Origin: Porphyridium purpureum
Taxonomy: Eukaryota
Reading direction: 5' to 3'
Length of the DNA stretch: 64,000 bases
Assembly (NCBI GenBank): GCA_008690995.1
Contig: VRMN01000003.1
Span: 2,046,001-2,110,000 of the forward strand
The stretch's first letter is position 1. Each line of letters starts with the position of its first letter. The position numbers and the translations under genes are program-made. Below, in pieces: positions 5,273 through 59,063 of this stretch. The notes under the pieces were generated by a model. It saw only the letters and a program-made list of their open reading frames with translations, ran no database searches and was not told the origin of the DNA.

Positions 5273-7654
5273 CTACTTTGTGAGCATGGCGCGGAAGTCA
5301 GCCTGCGACAGAGAAGGCTTGCTACCGCTTGTTTCGGTGCGAGCTTCGGTGGTTGTGGTGGCGCCAGGTTCGGCAGGCATTCCATTCTGGGCGTCGATTG
5401 TCAATCGCATCGCCGGCTGCTGCGCAGGAGCCGGCGCAGACCCATACATAGCACTGAAACCACGATGCAGCCGCGGCGCCTGCAACGCTGATGCTGATCC
5501 CACGGCTGTCGAAGCAGCCTTTGGCGGCTTGGACCTGAGCACAGATATTTTTCGACCGTGAAGCTCAGAACCATGTGCCGCCAAAGCAGCCTGTACGCCT
5601 TGCTCCGAGGTAAACTCAATATAGGCAAACGCACGGCTACCATCCTTGGTGTGCTTGAGACGGATCTCCTTCAGGTCCGGCAGCCTTCCAAACACCGCTG
5701 CGAGCTCTTCTGCCGTGGTATGCTTGTCAAGTTGGCTTACATAGACGGTGCACTGGTCATTGTACCACGTCATGGCACTAGACTTGGTATCGTGACGAGC
5801 TTCCATCGCACCAAGCGCTTCGCTTCGCCCTGCGCTGCCGCTCGGTCGAGTCGTGCGTGCTTGAGAAGAATTCTGCTTCTCCACAGACTGCCCTGACGTC
5901 AGAGCATGCTCACCATTTAAATACTGAGAGGACATCGCACTGGCGTCAGCAAACGCCTCCTGCTGTTCAGAGTGAATGCGCTTGCGCTTTGCGGGGACTG
6001 CGGCCGCCGCGCGACCTAAAGAACGATGAATGCGATCCTTTTCCTGCTGGCGTACAAGTGCCACGCGCCTTTCGATGGCCGCGCTCGCTTGTTGAAGCCA
6101 GTTGCTACTATCTGCAAAGACGGCTTCAGTCTCCATCCACTCTTTTCCCAGTAAAAGAACGTCAGATTCAGTACTCAACACGGATATGCCGCGGCGAAAG
6201 AGCTTGCGCCACCCAAAGTCCTGATGCCTTTTGTGAATGTGTTCTTCCAGCCGCAAGCACGCCAGCCAAACGCTAACTTCCTTACCAAAACGCCCCGAGA
6301 TTGCCTTTTCCATGTATGTTCGTGCCATTGCTGTGTCGTCCGCGACCAGCACGAGCATACGACACGCGAGAAGCAGCAAGGACACGTTATCGAGCGTCAA
6401 CGATGAAAAGAGGCGCGAGACAAACGCCGTGAATTGTGCATGGTCGTCTGCTCCAGGGACCAAGGATCTCCGAGCAAATTCCAGCAAGGTGCGACGCGCC
6501 TTGTCCCAAATCGAGTGGGCTATTGCGGGTGCCAAGACTTGCCCCTGTTCTGTGAGTGCGATGCAGCGGTCTAAGAATTGCTCCGCTTCTGCGAAAGGCA
6601 TGCCATTGGTCTCGAGCGCATCGATGTACGCGGCGGCTATATCGCCAGACATGGGCAAGTTTCGAAGTGCGCGCGATAAAACGCCGAGCTGCCGCTGCTT
6701 GTCCTGGAGCACGGAATTCATCACGTGCGCGTACCGCAACCATGGGTATTCGCTGTCAAAATGCAACGAGACCATCCGCTCTAAGAGTACAATGGCCCGA
6801 TTTGGATCGGCCTGGATTTCCAGAGCAAGATAGTTCTCCCACGCGCTCTGCACGCTTTCATTGTACGCCCCACCACTGGCTGAGACTGCCGCATTCACAA
6901 GCGCCTCGCAATGCTCACGCTGCGCTACCATGCTTCGCACACTCTCAACAGTCGCAGCGAGCTGTTCCAACAAGTCTGGAAACTTCACTCGCGTTTCGTC
7001 TACCCAGTCTTCGTAGTTAGCGAGCGGCACGCGCAGAATTCTCTGCCATACTGCGCGCTCTTGTCGCAATTCATCGTCAGCTGCGGCTTCAACAGCCAGC
7101 CGGCAGGTCCACATTCTGGCACCCTGTGTGAAATGCGTGGCACATTTCGCCATAAGCTCCGAGTCCATTCTGCCGCGCATCTGGGCCATGGTTTCCAATC
7201 GCAGCTCGTAGCGCGTCGCGAGAATCTGCATACCCAACAGTGCCAAATCCACCGACACATAGTCTCGCAGACCGGTATGTACCAGCTTTAGCACTGCCTC
7301 TGTAGCTGCATCCAAGCGCTCCTTGTCGTAGTCTATAGGCGAGTCGTCCTCTTGCTCGCTATCTTGCGGCATGACCGCCTGGACGTCCTCGAGCTCATCC
7401 TCAACCCACGCGATCCAGAGCTCAGGCGCTAGTGGCAGGCGCTCGTGCATGTCTGTGCGCGCGGCAAGCAGCGCTCGCTTCATGCAGGCCCAGCCAACGT
7501 CACTGGCTTGTGACTGTGCACTGTCTTCAGCATAGTGACACGTGGTGCAAAAGCGCCTTTCTGCGTTCCGCAGCGCAGTGACGTATAGTTCGTGGGCCGA
7601 ATAGTTTAGCGGCTGCTCCGCAACCACACGGCGCAGCTCCTCGATCTGCTCCAT
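5273..7654 (-). CDS. SART3: SART3/Prp24-like U4/U6 recycling factor (HAT repeats + RRM)
   Basis: N-terminal HAT/TPR-like repeats (PLAPELWIAWVEDE, DYVSVDL) and C-terminal RRM (TVYVSQL...RAFAYIEF), ending in the LSm-binding-like motif LSQADFRAML. Confidence 0.8.
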   Translation of the reverse strand: MEQIEELRRVVAEQPLNYSAHELYVTALRNAERRFCTTCHYAEDSAQSQASDVGWACMKRALLAARTDMHERLPLAPELWIAWVEDELEDVQAVMPQDSEQEDDSPIDYDKERLDAATEAVLKLVHTGLRDYVSVDLALLGMQILATRYELRLETMAQMRGRMDSELMAKCATHFTQGARMWTCRLAVEAAADDELRQERAVWQRILRVPLANYEDWVDETRVKFPDLLEQLAATVESVRSMVAQREHCEALVNAAVSASGGAYNESVQSAWENYLALEIQADPNRAIVLLERMVSLHFDSEYPWLRYAHVMNSVLQDKQRQLGVLSRALRNLPMSGDIAAAYIDALETNGMPFAEAEQFLDRCIALTEQGQVLAPAIAHSIWDKARRTLLEFARRSLVPGADDHAQFTAFVSRLFSSLTLDNVSLLLLACRMLVLVADDTAMARTYMEKAISGRFGKEVSVWLACLRLEEHIHKRHQDFGWRKLFRRGISVLSTESDVLLLGKEWMETEAVFADSSNWLQQASAAIERRVALVRQQEKDRIHRSLGRAAAAVPAKRKRIHSEQQEAFADASAMSSQYLNGEHALTSGQSVEKQNSSQARTTRPSGSAGRSEALGAMEARHDTKSSAMTWYNDQCTVYVSQLDKHTTAEELAAVFGRLPDLKEIRLKHTKDGSRAFAYIEFTSEQGVQAALAAHGSELHGRKISVLRSKPPKAASTAVGSASALQAPRLHRGFSAMYGSAPAPAQQPAMRLTIDAQNGMPAEPGATTTTEARTETSGSKPSLSQADFRAMLTK

Positions 7655-45219: not shown

Positions 45220-45224
45220 AAAAA
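45220..45224 (-). terminator. Pol III T5 terminator of permuted tRNA-Lys
   Basis: TTTTT 9 nt after the end of the 5' part. Confidence 0.7.
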
Positions 45225-45233
45225 GTTTTGCCA

Positions 45234-45334
45234 CTCGAACCCACGACCACCAGATTAAAAGTCTGGCGCTCTGACCAACTGAGCTAGGCAGGCATGAGGA
45301 ATCCGATGTGCTCGGTTTCTTACCCACCGTGGGG
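45234..45334 (-). tRNA. tRNA-Lys(UUU): Circularly permuted tRNA-Lys(UUU): 3' part (nt 60-73) at 45334-45321, 27-nt spacer, 5' part (nt 1-59) at 45293-45234
   Basis: The 5' part GCCTGCCTAGCTCAGTTGGTCAGAGCGCCAGACTTTTAATCTGGTGGTCGTGGGTTCGAG is not followed by a T-stem/acceptor 3' strand. The missing CCCCACGGTGGGTA lies upstream and completes the T-stem (GTGGG/CCCAC) and the acceptor stem. Confidence 0.92.
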
Positions 45335-45371
45335 ATTTCGTAAAATTAGGGTGAGTAGAGGAAAACTTAAA

Positions 45372-45381
45372 ATATATATAT
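45372..45381 (-). promoter_or_regulatory. TATA box upstream of permuted tRNA-Lys
   Basis: ATATATATAT in a GC-rich genome, about 40 nt upstream of the 3' part. Confidence 0.65.
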
Positions 45382-46077
45382 TTTGTATGTGGTTCAGGAG
45401 AACGTGGTTGGGAGGTACAGTGAACCCTGTGTTTTACGCCAAGGCATGAAAAACGGCTTGGTCCACGTGTGAAACGCACGCCAAGGGGAAGAGCGCGGCG
45501 AGTATGCCGGTGACGACAATGATAACGTTGTGCGCCTCGGCAGGCCTGCTTGTCGAAAAAATCCATCGCTGATCGGGTCCGTGTCTTTCTCTCCCAGAAT
45601 TTACCGTACACGTACAGAAAGATAAGCGTACAATTTTCATCGCACATCGCATGCGAATGTCATGAGAACCAGATGCGTCGACCAGTGCGCCGATGCCGTG
45701 TGCTATGTCACATGCCCATTGGCCTTATCCATATCCTCGGTCAGAGGCTCAAAGCTATGCTTGTCACGCTGTTCACCTTGCTTTCACACGCAATGAACGC
45801 GCGGTCCATGCTTGTCATAAACGAACCGTTTCCGTTCCATACAAGGTAGAAAAAATCAATGTGGGCACGTGCATCTGTTCTTTCATGCCATTCGTTTAGA
45901 TTCACGTGCAAGAAGTTGTGGATTATTGCTTGGTACTTCATCACGACAGAATCCACTCCAGACACTCAGCACTGAGCTTTGCAGCATTCAGCACGGGCGT
46001 TTCTCTAATGATATGTCTCATCTATACAGCCTTCTCGTTCACTCTTCCTGCGCATCGCCATTTCTATCCTGACGGCA

Positions 46078-51951: not shown

Positions 51952-53262
51952 CTATCGTCGCTTTCCGCTCTTGTCAATAAATGGCGCGGTATCCATCAGA
52001 ACGGACAGTCGCTTCAGATTCTGGCTCCGCATGTGATGCACATGCTTCAGCGACTGCTCTGCGTCCTTTTGCGAAATCGGCGACGCAAAGTAAGCTGGGA
52101 ATTCTGAAGCCATGAGAAACACATCTGACGTCGTTTCCCGGATCTTAAAACCAAATGCATCGCACCCGTCCTCATTGGCACTATCTGTATTTGTGAACCT
52201 TCCCAAAATTTGTCCAACCTCTTCTTGTGGTTCAAACACGACAAAGGTATCGCGATACCAGTCCGCTATCATGAAGAACAATGTCATATCCAGCGGTGCA
52301 TGGTAAGCCGTCAATCGAGACAGTAGAAAATTGACGCCTTGCCTGGACAAAATGTACGCGCTCGCCCGTGCGAACGGATTGGGCTCGATCTTCTGCAGGC
52401 CAACGCCTTGGCCCGACGAACCTGCAGCTGTGTCCCGAAGCCAAATAGCGTGCCAAGCAGTTTCACCTTTCGCGACTATTGTGCGCGTCTCCATGGTGTC
52501 TGCGGATCCCACGAGCGCGTCCGCCTTGGCCTTCGTAACGAACACGCCAGGTTCTAGCACCAACACTGCACCAGCACGGTCGTTGCGAAAAACATGCTCC
52601 CAGCTACGCAAATGCGCTTCGTACCGCGCGACGTCGGACGCGTAGACGCGACTGTCGCGTGGGTGGACATGAGTTATTGGAACGGGCGATTCCACTTTCA
52701 GGTCAATCTCGCGGTCGATGAAAACGGGAAGTATTTCCTCTTCTATCCATCCATATTGGGACACTAGCAGTTGCACACTTGCATCCACACGCTCCTTACA
52801 GAAGGGGTCACCCACTATCACGACCTGCGCGACGCGCTCCTGAGCTTGCTTGGGTTCCGTAAACAAGACGTGGTCTTTATCATCGACCACAGGCAAATAC
52901 CGGGGCAAGACCAGAGGAAACGCACCCAGTGGAAGAGACGATTCAGCGCGGCTTTCATTCTGCGTCCCTGTCAACTTGGCGTCGCCGTATGCGACAGAAT
53001 CCGGTATCCACGTTGGACTTCTTGAGGCATACTGCGGAACCGAGCTGAGAAACATCGGCAACACAAGCGACGACCTGCGGACCGAATAAAACAGGCTCGC
53101 AGGGATCAGCACCAAGAACACGAACAATGAGATCGCAAATGCAGGACGATGCACCCGCTGCTGCACCTCACTTCTCGCGCAGCTCTGCATCCGCTCAAGC
53201 CATGCGCGCCATCTCGGTGCTCCCGCGCGACCTGTGCGGGTTGCGAACACCGAATCCGCCAT
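51952..53262 (-). CDS. Type II membrane glycosyltransferase, GT25-like (divergent)
   Basis: Single N-terminal TM and stem, then AHLRSWEH...VLVLE and ASAYILSRQGVNFLL...PLD, resembling GT25 motifs. Confidence 0.6.
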   Translation of the reverse strand: MADSVFATRTGRAGAPRWRAWLERMQSCARSEVQQRVHRPAFAISLFVFLVLIPASLFYSVRRSSLVLPMFLSSVPQYASRSPTWIPDSVAYGDAKLTGTQNESRAESSLPLGAFPLVLPRYLPVVDDKDHVLFTEPKQAQERVAQVVIVGDPFCKERVDASVQLLVSQYGWIEEEILPVFIDREIDLKVESPVPITHVHPRDSRVYASDVARYEAHLRSWEHVFRNDRAGAVLVLEPGVFVTKAKADALVGSADTMETRTIVAKGETAWHAIWLRDTAAGSSGQGVGLQKIEPNPFARASAYILSRQGVNFLLSRLTAYHAPLDMTLFFMIADWYRDTFVVFEPQEEVGQILGRFTNTDSANEDGCDAFGFKIRETTSDVFLMASEFPAYFASPISQKDAEQSLKHVHHMRSQNLKRLSVLMDTAPFIDKSGKRR

Positions 53263-53363
53263 CCGCAGCCGTCTTCCTCACTGGCCCCCCCTTTCCCGCC
53301 ACTACTTTGAACCGAGCCAGAACTCTGAAAATGTTGCGTCTCCCCTGGACTTTCCACAAATAC

Positions 53364-53372
53364 AATATTTAT
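53364..53372 (+). promoter_or_regulatory. TATA-like element upstream of permuted tRNA-Glu
   Basis: AATATTTAT about 40 nt upstream of the 3' part, the same spacing as at the Lys locus. Confidence 0.5.
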
Positions 53373-53413
53373 GATGTTTAAATTTTCTCCTCTCCCGCAG
53401 TCTGGAAATAGAG

Positions 53414-53538
53414 CCGGGAAGGTCCCGGGATCAAGCGTCAGCGACAGCTGGCTGAGAGCCCCGGCTGGGAAGGAAAGATTTTCTCCTCGGAGGAAAAGCT
53501 TTTCCCAGTGGTCTAGTGGTTAGGATGTCCCGCTTTCA
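53414..53538 (+). tRNA. tRNA-Glu(UUC): Circularly permuted, intron-containing tRNA-Glu(UUC): 3' part (nt 38-73) at 53414-53472 with T-loop intron 53436-53458, 29-nt spacer, 5' part (nt 1-37) at 53502-53538
   Basis: 5' part TTCCCAGTGGTCTAGTGGTTAGGATGTCCCGCTTTCA. Upstream 3' part CCGGGAAGGTCCCGGGATCAAG[intron]CCCCGGCTGGGAAG. Acceptor TTCCCAG/CTGGGAA, anticodon stem TCCCG/CGGGA and T-stem CCGGG/CCCGG all pair perfectly. Confidence 0.92.
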
Positions 53539-53554
53539 ATTCCTGAGACGGAAA

Positions 53555-53562
53555 TTTTTTTT
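53555..53562 (+). terminator. Pol III T8 terminator of permuted tRNA-Glu
   Basis: Run of 8 T starting 16 nt after the 5' part. Confidence 0.8.
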
Positions 53563-54892
53563 CTTGGACTTCGTTGTGGCTCTCCAATTTTTGCTTGACG
53601 CTGCGAAATTGTCCGACAATGCCTCGTCTGTCTCTGCCACCTTCTTCTCTCCCGACCTGCTACTCAAGTGTTTATTGAGTTGGGCGCCGCCAGAAACAGC
53701 GACCGGAGCTCTGATTCCGTACATGCCTTCGCAGCGGTAGTTTCCTTTTCAGATCATATCACGTGTATCATGACGACGTAAAATGCACACTCGCGCCCAA
53801 AAACGTTGACTCGCAAGCTGGGTTTCTCCGATGTCACAGTGGAGCGTTTCGAATACTTTACGGCACCGAGCAAATTGTCAAGGCACCCTGGCATGGAAAC
53901 GTGCTCGCTGCCTGCAAATCTGCAGCCATGCGACGCCGGCCTCCGCCGCACATGCTTAACATAGTCAATGGTTTCGGTATATCTATCCATAACTTGATGG
54001 AGAGGATCTACATCAGTGACCAGCCTTCTGCGCGTCGCGCTTTGACAGTAAGGTGAGCTGGTGCCCCCGGCCGGGTGCTGCATGCGTGCGCTTTCAGTGC
54101 AATGCATCAAAAAATCGTCCAGATCAAAATGGAATAGGAAACTGCCTTTTCCATGACGCTCTCTCAGAATGGCACAGTGCTTTTCTGTGAAGATGAGCTC
54201 AAGAGGCTGATACCGCTTCTTGTTCGTCCCGACGGCCACGCCGCCGTAGATGTGATAGCCACACGCGAGTGTCGCATGCGTCGCAACTCATGCCCTGTAC
54301 CACGGCTTACCTTCTTGCTGGATGAATTCAGCGCGGATCAAGTGCCACCTCAACCTCATGGCACACAGCCAAGTGCACAAAGGCGCGCGGATTGTAGACA
54401 CCGACTCATCCCATTCTAAGCCTAAGCTTAAGCCCCCAGGCTCGGGCCAAGGCCAAGGCCACGTAGAACATACAGGCATTGTGGAGCCACGCGTGTCCAA
54501 GCAAAAGACTCAGTTAGCCGGCCTTAGGCAGCAACGAAGCTTGTTATTGTGTGGCACACCGAGTAAACGGTCGATCATCGTGCAGCTCCTTAGACAAACA
54601 CCGCGCTGAGGTAACTTGGGGTACAAGACTTCGACGCAGGTTCTGTTGTGTTAGTGTACCTCCAGCAGCGCTCGTAGGAATCTCGCCGAAATCGGCCCGT
54701 TTCGCTAGTAGAGCGTTGGAGAGGAAAGCTGTACCTCCACCGATCACTGCACCTCAACAGGGTACAGCGAAAATCGAAACCGATAAACCGAGTTTGCGTG
54801 GCTTGTGCGCGAGCAGGTCAAGCACTCGCGGGAGCGAGACGTGCAAGCGCGCGAGGACACACAGAAGGGAGAGACGGAGAGGCAAAGGGGAG

Positions 54893-56545
54893 ATGCGGCG
54901 ATGGCATGTGGAACTTTCGTGTGTTCCATCGGATGGCGACGCGCCGTATGAGTGTGATATGAGATGTGCTGCGGGCGGCTCGTTTCAGGGACTGGCAGCG
55001 CCGTCCGCATGGGTTCGGAGTTTGGGTCCCGCCCGACGTGCGCGAAGCGCCGTGTCCAAGTCGATGCTGCGCGTGCCGGTTTGTTTTGTTGCGCAGCCGC
55101 CGGGTCGGGGAATCGATAGGGTGGCGTATGGGGGTTCAAGGAGGGGTGCATATCAGGCATGCGGCGTGCAAAAGCGCGGGCTGTGGATGACGGGTGAATT
55201 CGGTCTCACCGGCTCCGATTGGGCCGATGCCGCCATGGTGGCTGATACGGCAATGACTGCGTTGAGCTTTTCGGCCGCGGCAATGGCGTCGACGGTTTCG
55301 GGGTCTTCCGCGCAATCAGATAAATCCGCGGCGCGCCGTCAGCCGGGGAGACTCAGTGACAACTCAAGTTTAGAGACGAGTACAAAGAGCGTCAGCCGCG
55401 TGCGTCGAAGAAACCCTGCGTCTGGAACGAGCAATGAATGTAGGCAAAAGCAGAGACATGCCGTCTCTTCTCCTGCGGGGGGCTCAGTGTCCGGCTCTGG
55501 GCCTCGAAAGGTGAAATCGCGGTCCAAAAGTCCGCTCTCCGGTATGGAGTCACGACAAAGTGACCCTGTAAATGCAAAAGCAAAGTCAAAAGTGAAACAA
55601 AACAAAGGAAGAGCAAAACAGAGGATCAGAACAAAGGCCCAAGTGGCACTCTCTCGAGCAGAGCGAGGGCTGCTTATGCGCTCGTTTACCGCGAGTGCGC
55701 CAGAGGACCATATTTTTTCCTCCGGTGCCTTGTTGGCAAGACGAGACGGCAGTGGCAGCAGCGTGACAAGAAACCACACAGCAAGCACCGAAGAGACATC
55801 CGCTTTGACGGATGCAGATGAAACGTACAAGCAAGACCTCGAAATCAAGCGCCCAACATTACTACCGCTTGCCTCGTCGCTCGGTACTTTTCTCGGCGAT
55901 TCGAAAACCGTGCCCGTGTTCAAGCCTTCTCTAGAGACTGGGAGTCACACCGAGATGTTCACAAGTGCCGCTTTAGAGTTTGCGGGTGATGTATTGCCTC
56001 AGGCGGAACACTTTGGCGGGCCTAACCGGACCCATCTGAGCCAACTCGCGCGCAACATTTTTGTGTTTTACGACGAGTATGTGTTCCAGAACCAGCTGCG
56101 CGACCATACGTACATCAATTGGAACCGGCGGCTGCGAAGTACAGCGGGGCTCACGCGGTTCCTGGAGGACAAGCGCGGCGGCAGCTCGCTGCGCTTCTCG
56201 GTGATTGAGCTCAGTAGCAAGGTGTTGACATCATCAGAGCGGCTGTACGCAACGCTGGTGCACGAACTCTGCCATGCGGCGCAGTGGGTGGTGGACGCCG
56301 AATACCGCCCGCCCCATGGCGCTGCTTTCATGCGCTGGGTGCGCCGGTGTGAGAAAATCGACCCGGCGCTCTCGATCACCACATGTCACAACTTTGAAAT
56401 CCAGTACCGCTTCTGGTGGGCGTGCAGCCAGTGCGGCGAGGCATACGGAAGGCACTCCAATTCCATTGACGTGCGAAGTGTCGCATGTGCGCGCTGCAGC
56501 GGCAAGCTGCGCCGCACAATCCCTAATCAGGTTCGAGACCACTAG
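54893..56545 (+). CDS. SprT-like zinc metalloprotease (GCNA/ACRC-type) with long disordered N-terminus
   Basis: WNRRLRSTAG, IELSSKV, TLVHELCHAA (HExxH), PHG..F, CSQC...CARC zinc ribbon. Start uncertain. Confidence 0.87.
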   Translation: MRRWHVELSCVPSDGDAPYECDMRCAAGGSFQGLAAPSAWVRSLGPARRARSAVSKSMLRVPVCFVAQPPGRGIDRVAYGGSRRGAYQACGVQKRGLWMTGEFGLTGSDWADAAMVADTAMTALSFSAAAMASTVSGSSAQSDKSAARRQPGRLSDNSSLETSTKSVSRVRRRNPASGTSNECRQKQRHAVSSPAGGSVSGSGPRKVKSRSKSPLSGMESRQSDPVNAKAKSKVKQNKGRAKQRIRTKAQVALSRAERGLLMRSFTASAPEDHIFSSGALLARRDGSGSSVTRNHTASTEETSALTDADETYKQDLEIKRPTLLPLASSLGTFLGDSKTVPVFKPSLETGSHTEMFTSAALEFAGDVLPQAEHFGGPNRTHLSQLARNIFVFYDEYVFQNQLRDHTYINWNRRLRSTAGLTRFLEDKRGGSSLRFSVIELSSKVLTSSERLYATLVHELCHAAQWVVDAEYRPPHGAAFMRWVRRCEKIDPALSITTCHNFEIQYRFWWACSQCGEAYGRHSNSIDVRSVACARCSGKLRRTIPNQVRDH

Positions 56546-56738: not shown

Positions 56739-59063
56739 ATGGATTTGTTTTTGCTCTTTGCGTTTGTCCCACCCGGAGTTCCGCCGCCCGGTGCTCGAAA
56801 GGCGCAGAGTATTTCGGGAAGAACGGGGGTTTTGCGCGGAGGACGAGACCGCTCCCATCCATCTGCGGCGGTGCTGCGCCGTGCGACTGGGTTCCAACCG
56901 TCCTCGCCACAGAAAGGTCAGGGCAATGGGCGAGTACCGAATCAGCCCAATCCAGGCGACTCGGCGACAGCGCCCTCGGCTTCCTCTTCCGCACAGTCAC
57001 CGCCTGCTGGGCAGAACGCCGAGGGAGCCAGACGGGCCGCGAAGAAGAAATCGGAGCGTGGCCCAAAGAAGAAGAAAAACGCAGGCTCGCGCTCTTCTCC
57101 AGCGACGAAAGTCCAGCAGAAGGATCAGGACTTGTCGGCCATGCTCCAGGAAGATTTTGGTGTGCGCGTCCCGCATCGGCAAGACGGTGTCGAGTCTGAC
57201 CAAGTGCAAGAGCGAAGCATGTTTGGGCAACGCCTCGCGCGTTCACAGCAAATGCAGCAGGTGCAGCAAGCCCAGCCTGGGAGGAACATCGAGAATGCCG
57301 GCGAGGAAAAGGGAGAAGAATGGCTACCGGTTCCGGCACCGAGTTCGAGCTCGACATCGTCGGCTTCGCCTCCACCGTCTGCGTCACCAGGCATGCTGAC
57401 TCCGGGAGGCACGGGTGCACCGAGCATGCGAGCAGGAGATGCCGACGAGCAGCAGTTTGAGCGCGATCTTGGGCTGGCAGGACAGTATTCGAATCGATCA
57501 TCATTGCCGATGTCGACACAAGTGCCGCCTTATAACCTGCCGGATCCAGTTGTTGGCTCTGTTCCTGCGCCCGCTGGGTCGGCGGCCAGCCCGATGCCGG
57601 AAGTGGTTGACGTTAATGTGGTACCTGTTGGCTCGAACTATGCGATGGAGAGCAAGACTTTCGATGATATGCTGGACGAGCTGGCGATTCGCGCAGAGGC
57701 AACATCTGGCCGCTTGTTCCGCACGTCGGACCCACTGGTGTCGCAGGCGCTCGAGGAAGTATGGCATGATCGCGTGATGCACCAGAGGGATATTAAGGAC
57801 GGCATTCCCCAGTACGACGTTACTGGATCGCCCTTCCTGGACAGCTACACCATGGCATGCTCAGGATCGCTCTTCTTGGCGCAGTCTCGGCTTTACCGCG
57901 GCGTTGGCGTGATCATCACTCATAACTTTGGCGATTTTACCGTGCCGCTGCCGTCGCTGGATGAACTTGGCGACGGTGAGGAATTCGAGAGTCCTCAGAG
58001 CACGAGCGTGCGGCACTCGCTTGAGCAGTGGAGCCGGTGGAAGGCACATGCAGTTTATCTTGTGACGGGCCTTCCTTGCATCGCCGAAAGCACTGACTTT
58101 TGCGTCCCAGCGCAGCCGCAAATGCGGAATGATCGCGGCTTTTACGCACGCGTGTGGAACTCGGACATTGTTGAAAAGGCAGTGCAGCGATTCGGACCCG
58201 TGTCGCCACCAGAGCGTCGTGCGCGCTTCGAGAGCGTGGCCGTGTACTATGATGGCGAGACTGAGGTGGTGGGCAAAGGCGTCGTGGAGTGCGAGCTCGA
58301 GTTTATGAATCCGTCGCGGGCCATCATCGCCATGGCGTCTGCGTTAGACAACGTGTACAAGGTGTTGTACAAGCGGTTCTCGTTTGACCTGGCGTATTTT
58401 GATACGATCAGCCGCGATAACGAGATGCGTGATCTCCAGCAAACAACGATGACGGGCGCGACGTTTTTGAGGCAGCGCATCATGAACGAGGCCAAAGTGC
58501 TGCGCGACGGCATCCTCAAGGTGAGCAGCTTTTTGAACCACAAGGTGGACACGCGCCTGATGGACCTGTGCGGGCAGGAGCTCGCAGCGCGACTGCAGTC
58601 CACGCGCCCGAACAAGGTGCTGACTGTTGAGGCGACCGGACTGATTCCGGGCCTCACTGTTGCGCGCGTTCTGAACGTGCCCCTGGTGTTTGCGCGGAAG
58701 AGCCGGCCGATCTCGATCTCGGACTCGTACCAGACGACGTACCGCAGCGCGACCAAGGGTACCACGAGCGAGCTTGTGGTGAGCGAGGAGTACCTCGGTC
58801 CCAGCGACCGAGTCATCATTATCGACGACTTCCTTGCCGGCGGCAGCACGGTGGAGGCGTTGTTCAAGCTGGCCCGCATGGCGTCTGCGCGGGTGGTGGG
58901 CGTCGGCGTTCTCATTGAGAAAGTGTCCGACAGCGGCCGCACTGCTCTGAGCGGGTACGATGTGCCGATCATCAGCCTCGCGAAAGTGTCCAAGATAGAA
59001 GAAGGCCACGTCGAGGTGCTTGACGAGCCGCCATTCAACCGCATCGAACGCGTTGACGAGTAG
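56739..59063 (+). CDS. xpt: Xanthine phosphoribosyltransferase (Bacillus Xpt-like) fused to a long N-terminal region
   Basis: The last ~200 aa carry ILKVSSFLNHKVD, KVLTVEATG, VFARKS, DRVIIIDDFLAGG (PRPP loop) and GVLIEK. Confidence 0.85.
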   Translation: MDLFLLFAFVPPGVPPPGARKAQSISGRTGVLRGGRDRSHPSAAVLRRATGFQPSSPQKGQGNGRVPNQPNPGDSATAPSASSSAQSPPAGQNAEGARRAAKKKSERGPKKKKNAGSRSSPATKVQQKDQDLSAMLQEDFGVRVPHRQDGVESDQVQERSMFGQRLARSQQMQQVQQAQPGRNIENAGEEKGEEWLPVPAPSSSSTSSASPPPSASPGMLTPGGTGAPSMRAGDADEQQFERDLGLAGQYSNRSSLPMSTQVPPYNLPDPVVGSVPAPAGSAASPMPEVVDVNVVPVGSNYAMESKTFDDMLDELAIRAEATSGRLFRTSDPLVSQALEEVWHDRVMHQRDIKDGIPQYDVTGSPFLDSYTMACSGSLFLAQSRLYRGVGVIITHNFGDFTVPLPSLDELGDGEEFESPQSTSVRHSLEQWSRWKAHAVYLVTGLPCIAESTDFCVPAQPQMRNDRGFYARVWNSDIVEKAVQRFGPVSPPERRARFESVAVYYDGETEVVGKGVVECELEFMNPSRAIIAMASALDNVYKVLYKRFSFDLAYFDTISRDNEMRDLQQTTMTGATFLRQRIMNEAKVLRDGILKVSSFLNHKVDTRLMDLCGQELAARLQSTRPNKVLTVEATGLIPGLTVARVLNVPLVFARKSRPISISDSYQTTYRSATKGTTSELVVSEEYLGPSDRVIIIDDFLAGGSTVEALFKLARMASARVVGVGVLIEKVSDSGRTALSGYDVPIISLAKVSKIEEGHVEVLDEPPFNRIERVDE

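What the first reader, a model, noticed from the sequence alone, without database searches (positions are those of the whole stretch)
53401..53562. Circularly permuted tRNA-Glu(UUC) gene that also carries a T-loop intron
Seen: the order is leader, 3' half (nt 38-73), 29-nt spacer, 5' half (nt 1-37), trailer, T8. Rejoined, the halves give a complete cloverleaf with a perfect 7-bp acceptor stem and perfect 5-bp anticodon and T stems. Leader and trailer form a BHB around junction 37/38: outer GGAA/TTCC, central CTTT/ATAG (one mismatch), bulges CA|A and AG|C. A second BHB surrounds a 23-nt intron at 59/60: AG|C GTCAGC-gaca-GCTGGC TGAG AG|C. Established: permuted tRNA genes maturing through a circular intermediate are known from Cyanidioschyzon merolae, some prasinophytes, chlorarachniophytes and the archaeon Thermofilum. 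Inference: maturation needs two splicing events plus RNase P/tRNase Z opening of the circle. Standard tRNA scanners would miss it, and I am not aware of a description in a Porphyridium-type alga.
Basis: partly seen in the sequence, partly recalled or inferred. Interest (0 to 1): 0.93.

Follow-up and report, generated by a model that had tools for sequence, protein, structure and literature searches.

The report
Back-to-front glutamate tRNA gene, red alga
A single-celled red alga writes its glutamate tRNA gene back half first and with an extra intron, so the RNA would likely have to be spliced, closed into a circle and re-opened to work; the layout is known from a few algae and one archaeon, but this gene also appears to keep traces of the duplication that likely created it.

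Summary
53414-53472 is the 3' half with a 23-nt T-loop intron, followed by a 29-nt spacer, the 5' half (53502-53538) and T8. Rejoined, it is called tRNA-Glu(UUC) by ARAGORN and is 64/73 identical to an intact Glu gene. Contigs from three studies match it with no differences. The host is a mesophilic red alga, likely Porphyridium purpureum, whose published tRNAscan list has no Glu(TTC). The architecture is known: C. merolae Gly(CCC) is also permuted at 37/38 with a T-loop intron. New in what I searched are the lineage and the isotype. Position 54 is A, not T. Both BHB central helices pair only 3 of 4. A second permuted gene, Lys(UUU) type IV as in C. merolae, lies 8 kb away behind a similar AT-rich element. 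Three collinear repeats (11, 6, 6 nt; post hoc, 5 of 10,000 shuffles) look like remnants of a tandem duplication. No spliced or circular RNA was seen; the RNA data were too thin. The scan noted permuted tRNAs before on other DNA (C. merolae, diatoms, phages), not this gene. Verdict: new member of a known kind.

The parts
53360..53392 (+). Upstream AT-rich TATA-like element and pyrimidine tract, likely external Pol III promoter
   Evidence: Joint second most AT-rich 24-mer of the window (21/24); the most AT-rich (22/24) lies upstream of the Lys gene. Similar TATA-like plus AATTT elements precede C. merolae tRNA genes (Fig. S1). Promoter function inferred.
53382..53409 (+). Upstream copies of three collinear direct repeats (53382-53392, 53393-53398, 53404-53409), likely remnant of the outer part of a duplicated gene copy
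   Evidence: Match 53478-53488, 53528-53533 (tRNA positions 27-32) and 53550-53555. Chain score reached in 5 of 10,000 and 0 of 10,000 shuffles and 0 of 18,183 window 40-mers; post hoc.
53400..53413 (+). 5' leader; pairs with the trailer and with positions 32-35 (junction BHB, 3' cut before 53414)
   Evidence: Outer helices have pair probability 0.83-0.99; the central helix pairs 3 of 4. The start site near 53399-53402 is inferred.
53414..53435 (+). 3' half, first piece: tRNA positions 38-59 (A54 at 53430)
53436..53458 (+). 23-nt T-loop intron at 59/60 with a 6-bp stem and relaxed BHB
   Evidence: ARAGORN finds no tRNA with it left in and calls tRNA-Glu without it. In-register pairing arises in 74 of 200,000 random 23-mers.
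53459..53472 (+). 3' half, second piece: positions 60-73 (discriminator G73; no CCA encoded)
53473..53501 (+). 29-nt intervening sequence closing the acceptor stem; holds a 7-bp hairpin and a T4 run
53502..53538 (+). 5' half: positions 1-37, anticodon TTC at 53535-53537
   Evidence: Identical to the 5' half of the intact Glu(CTC) gene in L001 except at position 34.
53539..53554 (+). 3' trailer; pairs with the leader (5' cut after 53538)
53555..53562 (+). T8 run, likely Pol III terminator
   Evidence: function inferred
45222..45385 (-).
   Evidence: Descriptor hit; rejoined form called tRNA-Lys(ttt); Rfam tRNA hit on the 5' piece, 33 bits; same upstream element.

Best explanation
The locus is a circularly permuted tRNA-Glu(UUC) gene with the 3' half first and a 23-nt T-loop intron, and it is likely the working gene that supplies this alga's GAA-reading tRNA. 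Shown: the layout, the rejoined cloverleaf, the leader-trailer pairing, the AT-rich upstream element and the T8 run. [quoted passage not shown] Inferred origin: a normal gene with a 37/38 intron was duplicated in tandem (unit about 146 nt) and lost its outer exons, leaving the two parts of the old intron as trailer and leader.
For: The rejoined sequence is called tRNA-Glu by ARAGORN. It is 64 of 73 identical to an intact Glu(CTC) gene, with two compensatory T-stem changes (49-65, 50-64) and a G-U to G-C change at 7-66. The descriptor is met in only 3 of 300 shuffles. In-register leader/trailer pairing arises in 978 of 200,000 random flanks, 68 with the extra 4 bp; the intron pairing in 74 of 200,000. 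The two most AT-rich 24-mers other than a T run lie upstream of the two permuted genes. The DNA is identical in contigs of 3 of the 4 runs laid (X1, X2, X4; X1 and X2 may be the source). GAA makes up 367 of 907 Glu codons in 20 of the 33 listed ORFs and needs a U34 tRNA (established wobble rules). The published tRNAscan-SE list for P. purpureum has no Glu(TTC) among 30 rows and no row for Asn, Asp, Cys, His, Thr or Trp (PMC10496412 Table S4d). The intron motif is more stable than the junction motif (-16.1 against -6.6 to -10.0 kcal/mol), matching the intron-first order shown for C. merolae Gly(CCC). Collinear repeats support the duplication origin.
Against: A54 replaces the near-universal T54. 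The intact relative and C. merolae Glu(UUC) have T54, and the known elongator exception, tRNA-Ala(AGC), couples A54 with A48 (PMC7566577), whereas this gene has C48. Both central helices pair 3 of 4 and are not the favoured register. Two T4 runs (53479-53482, 53500-53503) lie inside the transcript and C. merolae terminators can be T4, although every Lys(UUU) gene must read through a T4. No joints were seen in raw RNA reads (depth 0-2 over the gene, 20-25% of each run read). No orthologous permuted Glu gene was found. The species is inferred.
Confidence: 0.85

Rival explanations
1. A real permuted gene in decay: after duplication it picked up T54A and is silent or makes an unstable tRNA, while another hidden (intron-broken) Glu(UUC) gene does the work.
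For: A54 and the two imperfect central helices; internal T4 runs; no processed RNA seen; many tRNA genes of the likely host are still unfound, with two 'Undet' rows.
Against: All other positions fit a Glu tRNA with perfect stems and compensatory changes. The upstream element and terminator are intact. A54-A58 pairs work in initiator tRNA and some tRNA-Ala. C. merolae processes motifs with no central helix. No Glu(TTC) in the tRNAscan list.
Confidence: 0.1
2. The gene is used but matures another way, for example the spacer is cut first and the halves are ligated as a linear two-piece intermediate, or the junction is cut before the intron.
For: No circular intermediate was observed here. The acceptor stem and spacer hairpin are the best-formed parts of the precursor.
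Against: Circles were found in both red and green algae and the intron went first in Gly(CCC). RNase P and tRNase Z recognise the acceptor stem plus T arm, which the intron distorts.
Confidence: 0.04
3. The order of the halves is an assembly error or a chance arrangement.
For: Two of the three matching runs may be the source of the window; X8, X3 and X7 have no contig over the gene.
Against: Independently assembled contigs of 27,900, 7,751 and 278 nt from three studies carry the same order with 0 differences and no joints. Leader and trailer pair in register. A second permuted gene has the same upstream element.
Confidence: 0.01

Closest known systems
C. merolae tRNA-Gly(CCC), type II permuted gene with T-loop intron (PMC3978253 Table 1; PMC3728597)
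   Same: Junction 37/38, an intron in the T loop of the 3' half, two independent BHB-type motifs, upstream TATA-like element, T-run terminator, red alga.
   Different: Isotype Glu; intron at 59/60 and 23 nt (against 55/56 and 13 nt); spacer 29 nt (against 7); A54; host outside Cyanidiophyceae (quick tree).
C. merolae tRNA-Glu(UUC), AB754488 (PMC3728597 Fig. S1)
   Same: Same anticodon; also a disrupted gene behind a TATA-like element.
   Different: Not permuted; two D-arm introns; T54; different stems. The permutation of Glu(UUC) is therefore lineage-specific.
C. merolae tRNA-Lys(UUU), type IV (PMC3978253 Table 1)
   Same: The companion gene in this window has the same anticodon and the same 59/60 junction, without intron.
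   Different: Spacer 27 nt against 38. I could not compare sequences, so shared ancestry and convergence are both open.
Chondrus crispus T-loop and D-loop tRNA introns (PlantRNA 2.0, 10.1101/2021.12.21.473619)
   Same: Red-algal T-loop introns at 58/59, spliced in vivo; the intron here can slide to 58/59 on sequence alone.
   Different: Chondrus is reported to lack permuted genes (PMC13578239).
A54-A58 tRNAs: eukaryotic initiator tRNA and tRNA-Ala(AGC) (PMC7566577, PMC7912444)
   Same: A at 54 with A58.
   Different: Here in a Glu tRNA with G15-C48 and C60; in tRNA-Ala A54 comes with A48 and a purine at 60.

Membership tests
Circularly permuted tRNA gene, type II | 3' half encoded upstream of the 5' half on the same strand, separated by a short intervening sequence (1-74 nt known) | tested here: met
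   29-nt spacer; range from Table 1
Circularly permuted tRNA gene, type II | Rejoined halves give a complete cloverleaf with the junction at 37/38 | tested here: met
   ARAGORN call; 64 of 73 identity to an intact Glu gene
Circularly permuted tRNA gene, type II | Leader and trailer form a strict or relaxed BHB motif at the junction | tested here: met
   Outer helices p 0.83-0.99, two 3-nt bulges, central helix 3 of 4 and not the favoured register, so a relaxed motif
Circularly permuted tRNA gene, type II | Upstream TATA-like element and downstream T run | tested here: met
   (rank of AT-rich 24-mers); T8 at 53555-53562
Circularly permuted tRNA gene, type II | No terminator between the halves | tested here: inconclusive
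   Two T4 runs in or at the spacer; an unspliced 278-nt contig of run X4 runs through them, but its RNA or DNA nature is not on record
Circularly permuted tRNA gene, type II | Circular RNA intermediate | tested here: inconclusive
   No joints in two raw RNA runs, depth 0-2 over the gene
Circularly permuted tRNA gene, type II | Mature, CCA-tailed, aminoacylated tRNA | not testable with these tools
   Needs tRNA-seq or acid northern
BHB-type T-loop intron | Removal restores a 7-nt T loop; the junction forms a BHB-like motif | tested here: met
   central helix 3 of 4
Canonical eukaryotic elongator tRNA consensus | U54-U55-C56 in the T loop | tested here: not met
   A54 at 53430 in the window and in contigs of X1, X2, X4. 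This bears on function, not on the permuted layout.
Canonical eukaryotic elongator tRNA consensus | U8, A14, G15-C48, G18-G19, U33, R37, G53-C61, A58 | tested here: met
   Read from the ARAGORN cloverleaf

The most novel reading that the evidence does not exclude
This gene is a fossil of its own birth and a working exception to the T-loop rule. Three collinear remnants record the tandem duplication and outer-exon loss long proposed as the origin of permuted tRNAs, and the product is the alga's only GAA-reading tRNA although it carries an initiator-like A54. With the Lys(UUU) type IV gene shared with C. merolae, one genome window would then hold both a recent and a possibly pan-red-algal permutation, and Porphyridium would be a second, transformable red-algal system with many hidden disrupted tRNA genes.
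Probability: 0.45. Interest if true: 0.75.

Novelty: new member of a known kind. Interest (0 to 1): 0.55.

Why it matters
In the papers I read, permuted tRNA genes in red algae are reported only from C. merolae, and Chondrus is said to lack them. Two such genes in 64 kb of a mesophilic red alga, plus six amino acids with no tRNA in the published scan of the likely host, imply that much of its tRNA set is hidden in disrupted form and that codon-usage work based on standard scans is incomplete. The origin of permuted tRNAs (ancient against recent, duplication-loss against reverse transcription) is an open question in PMC3978253. The collinear remnants here make the duplication-loss model testable by comparing strains and sister species. 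A functional Glu tRNA with A54 would be a new context for the A54-A58 pair.

Tried and rejected
Only 1 contig each of X1 and X2 lay on the stretch at 80% likeness; I do not use this as evidence against a second copy, because no Glu(CUC) isoacceptor showed up either, so sensitivity to 37-nt matches looks too low. RNA reads: X23 has no cover over the gene; X24 has depth 1-2 from 53289, upstream of the promoter, so these reads are not evidence of a Pol III transcript; X7 and X3 contigs leave a hole over the gene, which proves nothing. The X4 contig begins at 53402, near the predicted start, in a run whose cover stops at the neighbouring start codon as RNA would; contigs cannot show starts, so this is only a hint. 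Rfam at E up to 10 over 52900-54900 gave 5 hits, all far below gathering. Pattern scans for relatives gave 1 locus in metagenome contigs (an intact Glu(CTC) gene), 0 in viral contigs and 0 in genome contigs. An alternative intron position that restores T54 was considered; the only other T available gives T54-G55-A56 and loses U55 and C56. Global folding stability is not significant. My first descriptor script was faulty and was replaced. Relaxed ARAGORN with introns gave 26 calls that I took as noise. Cluster look-up of 5 window proteins gave no names (4 of 5 found). The duplication test on the Lys gene gave nothing (chain score 6). The careful tree did not finish; only the quick tree was read.

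Full report
What is there. On the plus strand come tRNA positions 38-59 (53414-53435), a 23-nt insert (53436-53458), positions 60-73 (53459-53472), a 29-nt spacer, positions 1-37 (53502-53538), a 16-nt trailer and T8 (53555-53562). Joined in silico in tRNA order without the insert, the 73 nt are called tRNA-Glu(ttc) by ARAGORN with complete acceptor, anticodon and T stems; with the insert left in, nothing is called. On the raw window ARAGORN and Rfam miss it.

Is it chance? A descriptor for permuted tRNAs of types II and IV, written after seeing the locus and allowing A or T at 54, finds 2 sites in 64 kb on both strands. Of 300 dinucleotide shuffles, 3 gave one site and none gave two (an earlier version with a bug found neither). 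Random 23-mers reproduce the intron pairing in 74 of 200,000. The one metagenome hit for a degenerate 5'-half pattern is an intact tRNA-Glu(CTC) gene (L001). It is 64 of 73 identical to the rejoined sequence; the differences include two compensatory T-stem pairs. The whole precursor does not fold better than shuffles (29 of 200).

Is the assembly right? Of 4 runs laid, X1 and X2 span the locus in single contigs (27,900 and 7,751 nt) with 0 differences, but may be the window's source. X4, from a third study, covers 53402-53679 with 0 differences. X8 has no cover over the gene. No joints were seen. In one search, raw RNA runs X23 and X24 (about 20 and 25% read) gave depth 0 and 1-2 over the gene and no joints, and contigs of X7 and X3 leave a hole there. 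Expression and processing are therefore not shown.

Host. A window protein's best named hits are all red algae: Galdieria 55%, Agarophyton 50%, Rhodosorus 46%, Cyanidiococcus and C. merolae 42% (120 of 409 hits listed). A quick tree of 59 of these rows puts it outside Cyanidiophyceae and outside the clade with Agarophyton, with two unnamed proteins (SH-aLRT 99; one gene; careful search unfinished). GC near 57%, long intron-poor ORFs and DNA runs of 24-27 million contig letters fit Porphyridium purpureum. So does a minus-strand Lys(TTT) row in a published tRNAscan table for that species whose start agrees in its last three digits with position 1 of the window's Lys gene. The species is inferred, not given by a tool.

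Is it the working gene? GAA makes up 367 of 907 Glu codons in 20 of the 33 listed ORFs and needs a U34 tRNA. The tRNAscan-SE list for P. purpureum has 30 rows with no Glu(TTC), and none for Asn, Asp, Cys, His, Thr or Trp (PMC10496412 Table S4d). That argues against a conventional Glu(UUC) gene but not against another disrupted one; two rows are undetermined. The upstream element is the joint second most AT-rich 24-mer of the window, the first being upstream of the Lys gene, and it resembles the elements before C. merolae tRNA genes.

Points against. Position 54 is A. The intact relative and C. merolae Glu(UUC) have T54, and PMC3978253 states that C. merolae elongators keep U54. A54-A58 is known in initiator tRNA and in tRNA-Ala(AGC), where it comes with A48; here position 48 is C. 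A54 also makes the intron's central helix 3 of 4, like the junction's, and the energy model prefers slipped registers for both. C. merolae processes motifs with no central helix at all, so this is tolerable. One inferred reason for drift at 54 is that the B box no longer acts as promoter in a gene driven from upstream. Two T4 runs lie within the transcript.

Mechanism. By analogy with C. merolae, Pol III makes a linear precursor of about 155-160 nt. The T-loop intron goes first: its motif evaluates at -16.1 kcal/mol against -6.6 to -10.0 for the junction (my segments differ from the paper's, so only the rank compares). Leader and trailer are then cut at 37/38 and the ends ligated into a 102-nt circle. 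RNase P and tRNase Z remove the spacer and CCA is added. All of these steps are inferred for this gene.

Origin. Three exact repeats lie in the same order upstream of the 3' half and in the spacer, 5' half and trailer: 53382/53478 (11 nt), 53393/53528 (6 nt, tRNA positions 27-32) and 53404/53550 (6 nt). The first two abut upstream, as after a clean 39-nt deletion. Merging trailer and leader at the third gives a 21-nt intron with its own hairpin. The chain score was reached in 5 of 10,000 shuffles of the upstream 40 nt, 0 of 10,000 shuffles of the downstream 83 nt and 0 of 18,183 other window 40-mers; without the third block, which pairing partly demands, in 23 of 10,000. This is the footprint expected from the tandem-duplication and outer-loss model (PMC3978253 Fig. 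5A). Cautions: the test is post hoc, the repeat finder lists 8 short repeat families in 241 nt, the 11-mer is pyrimidine-rich and overlaps a promoter-side tract, and the Lys gene shows no such chain. I put the duplication reading at about 0.65.

Companion gene. At 45334-45234 on the minus strand lies a permuted tRNA-Lys(UUU) with junction 59/60 and a 27-nt spacer. C. merolae has Lys(TTT) permuted at the same junction. With 11 of 43 C. merolae genes permuted, one such match among two genes could be chance (my rough estimate is 1 in 5), so shared ancestry is possible but not shown.

What is known. Table 1 of PMC3978253 lists 34 permuted genes, none for Glu, and includes C. merolae Gly(CCC) with junction 37/38 and an intron at 55/56. 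The combination is thus described. A 2026 review names C. merolae as the red alga with permuted genes, says Chondrus lacks them, and has no 'Porphyr' match (PMC13578239, passages); neither does the main text of PlantRNA 2.0. Eight literature searches were run; the five that bear on a Porphyridium or other red-algal report listed none by title or abstract. Seen: PMC3728597 parts 1-3 of 6 and supplement part 1 of 2; PMC3978253 parts 1-2 of 11, section 7, part 1 of 2 of section 10 and passages; passages only of PMC13578239, the PlantRNA preprint, PMC13353863, PMC7566577, PMC7912444; PMC10496412 passages, supplement 7 part 1 of 4 and supplement 8. Soma 2007, Maruyama 2010 and Chan 2011 were not read. 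The library lacks most subscription papers, and tRNA databases were not searched. Earlier notes of this scan report permuted tRNAs in C. merolae, diatoms and phages (unchecked AI notes) and nothing for this genome or sequence.

Verdict. A real type II permuted tRNA-Glu(UUC) gene with a T-loop intron, likely functional (0.85), and a new member of a known kind. Its value lies in the new lineage and isotype, the A54 anomaly, the companion Lys gene and the apparent duplication footprint. Interest 0.55.

Noticed in passing
window 45385-45222, minus strand: Second permuted tRNA gene, Lys(UUU), junction 59/60, 27-nt spacer, three G-U pairs in the acceptor stem. The leader pairs 4 of 4 with positions 54-57; the outer helix is weak. 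Same anticodon and junction as the C. merolae gene.
   Followed up: partly
window 45390-45345 (-) and 53355-53398 (+): The two genes share a longer upstream pattern: a short CA-rich box, a TATA-like run, a TTTAA box and a pyrimidine tract. It could serve as a probe for other hidden Pol III genes of this genome.
   Followed up: partly
window 7497-7585: ARAGORN calls tRNA-SeC here, but it lies inside a 793-codon ORF on the other strand and Rfam does not report it; probably spurious.
   Followed up: partly
L001 299-373: Intact, intron-free tRNA-Glu(CTC) of an unnamed organism, with no AT-rich upstream element; 5' half identical to the window's gene but for the anticodon.
   Followed up: yes
window 53137: A/G difference in 3 of 8 and 6 of 12 raw RNA reads of X23 and X24 within the neighbouring gene; allele or strain difference, not examined.
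   Followed up: no
window 56739-59063: 774-codon ORF whose C-terminal part looks like a purine phosphoribosyltransferase behind a long unrelated N-terminal region (recalled resemblance, no search run).
   Followed up: no
PMC10496412 Table S4d: The P. purpureum list holds a 126-nt Glu(CTC) flagged as pseudogene, a second Lys(TTT) call of 219 nt and two 'Undet' calls; these are candidates for further intron-broken or permuted genes.
   Followed up: no
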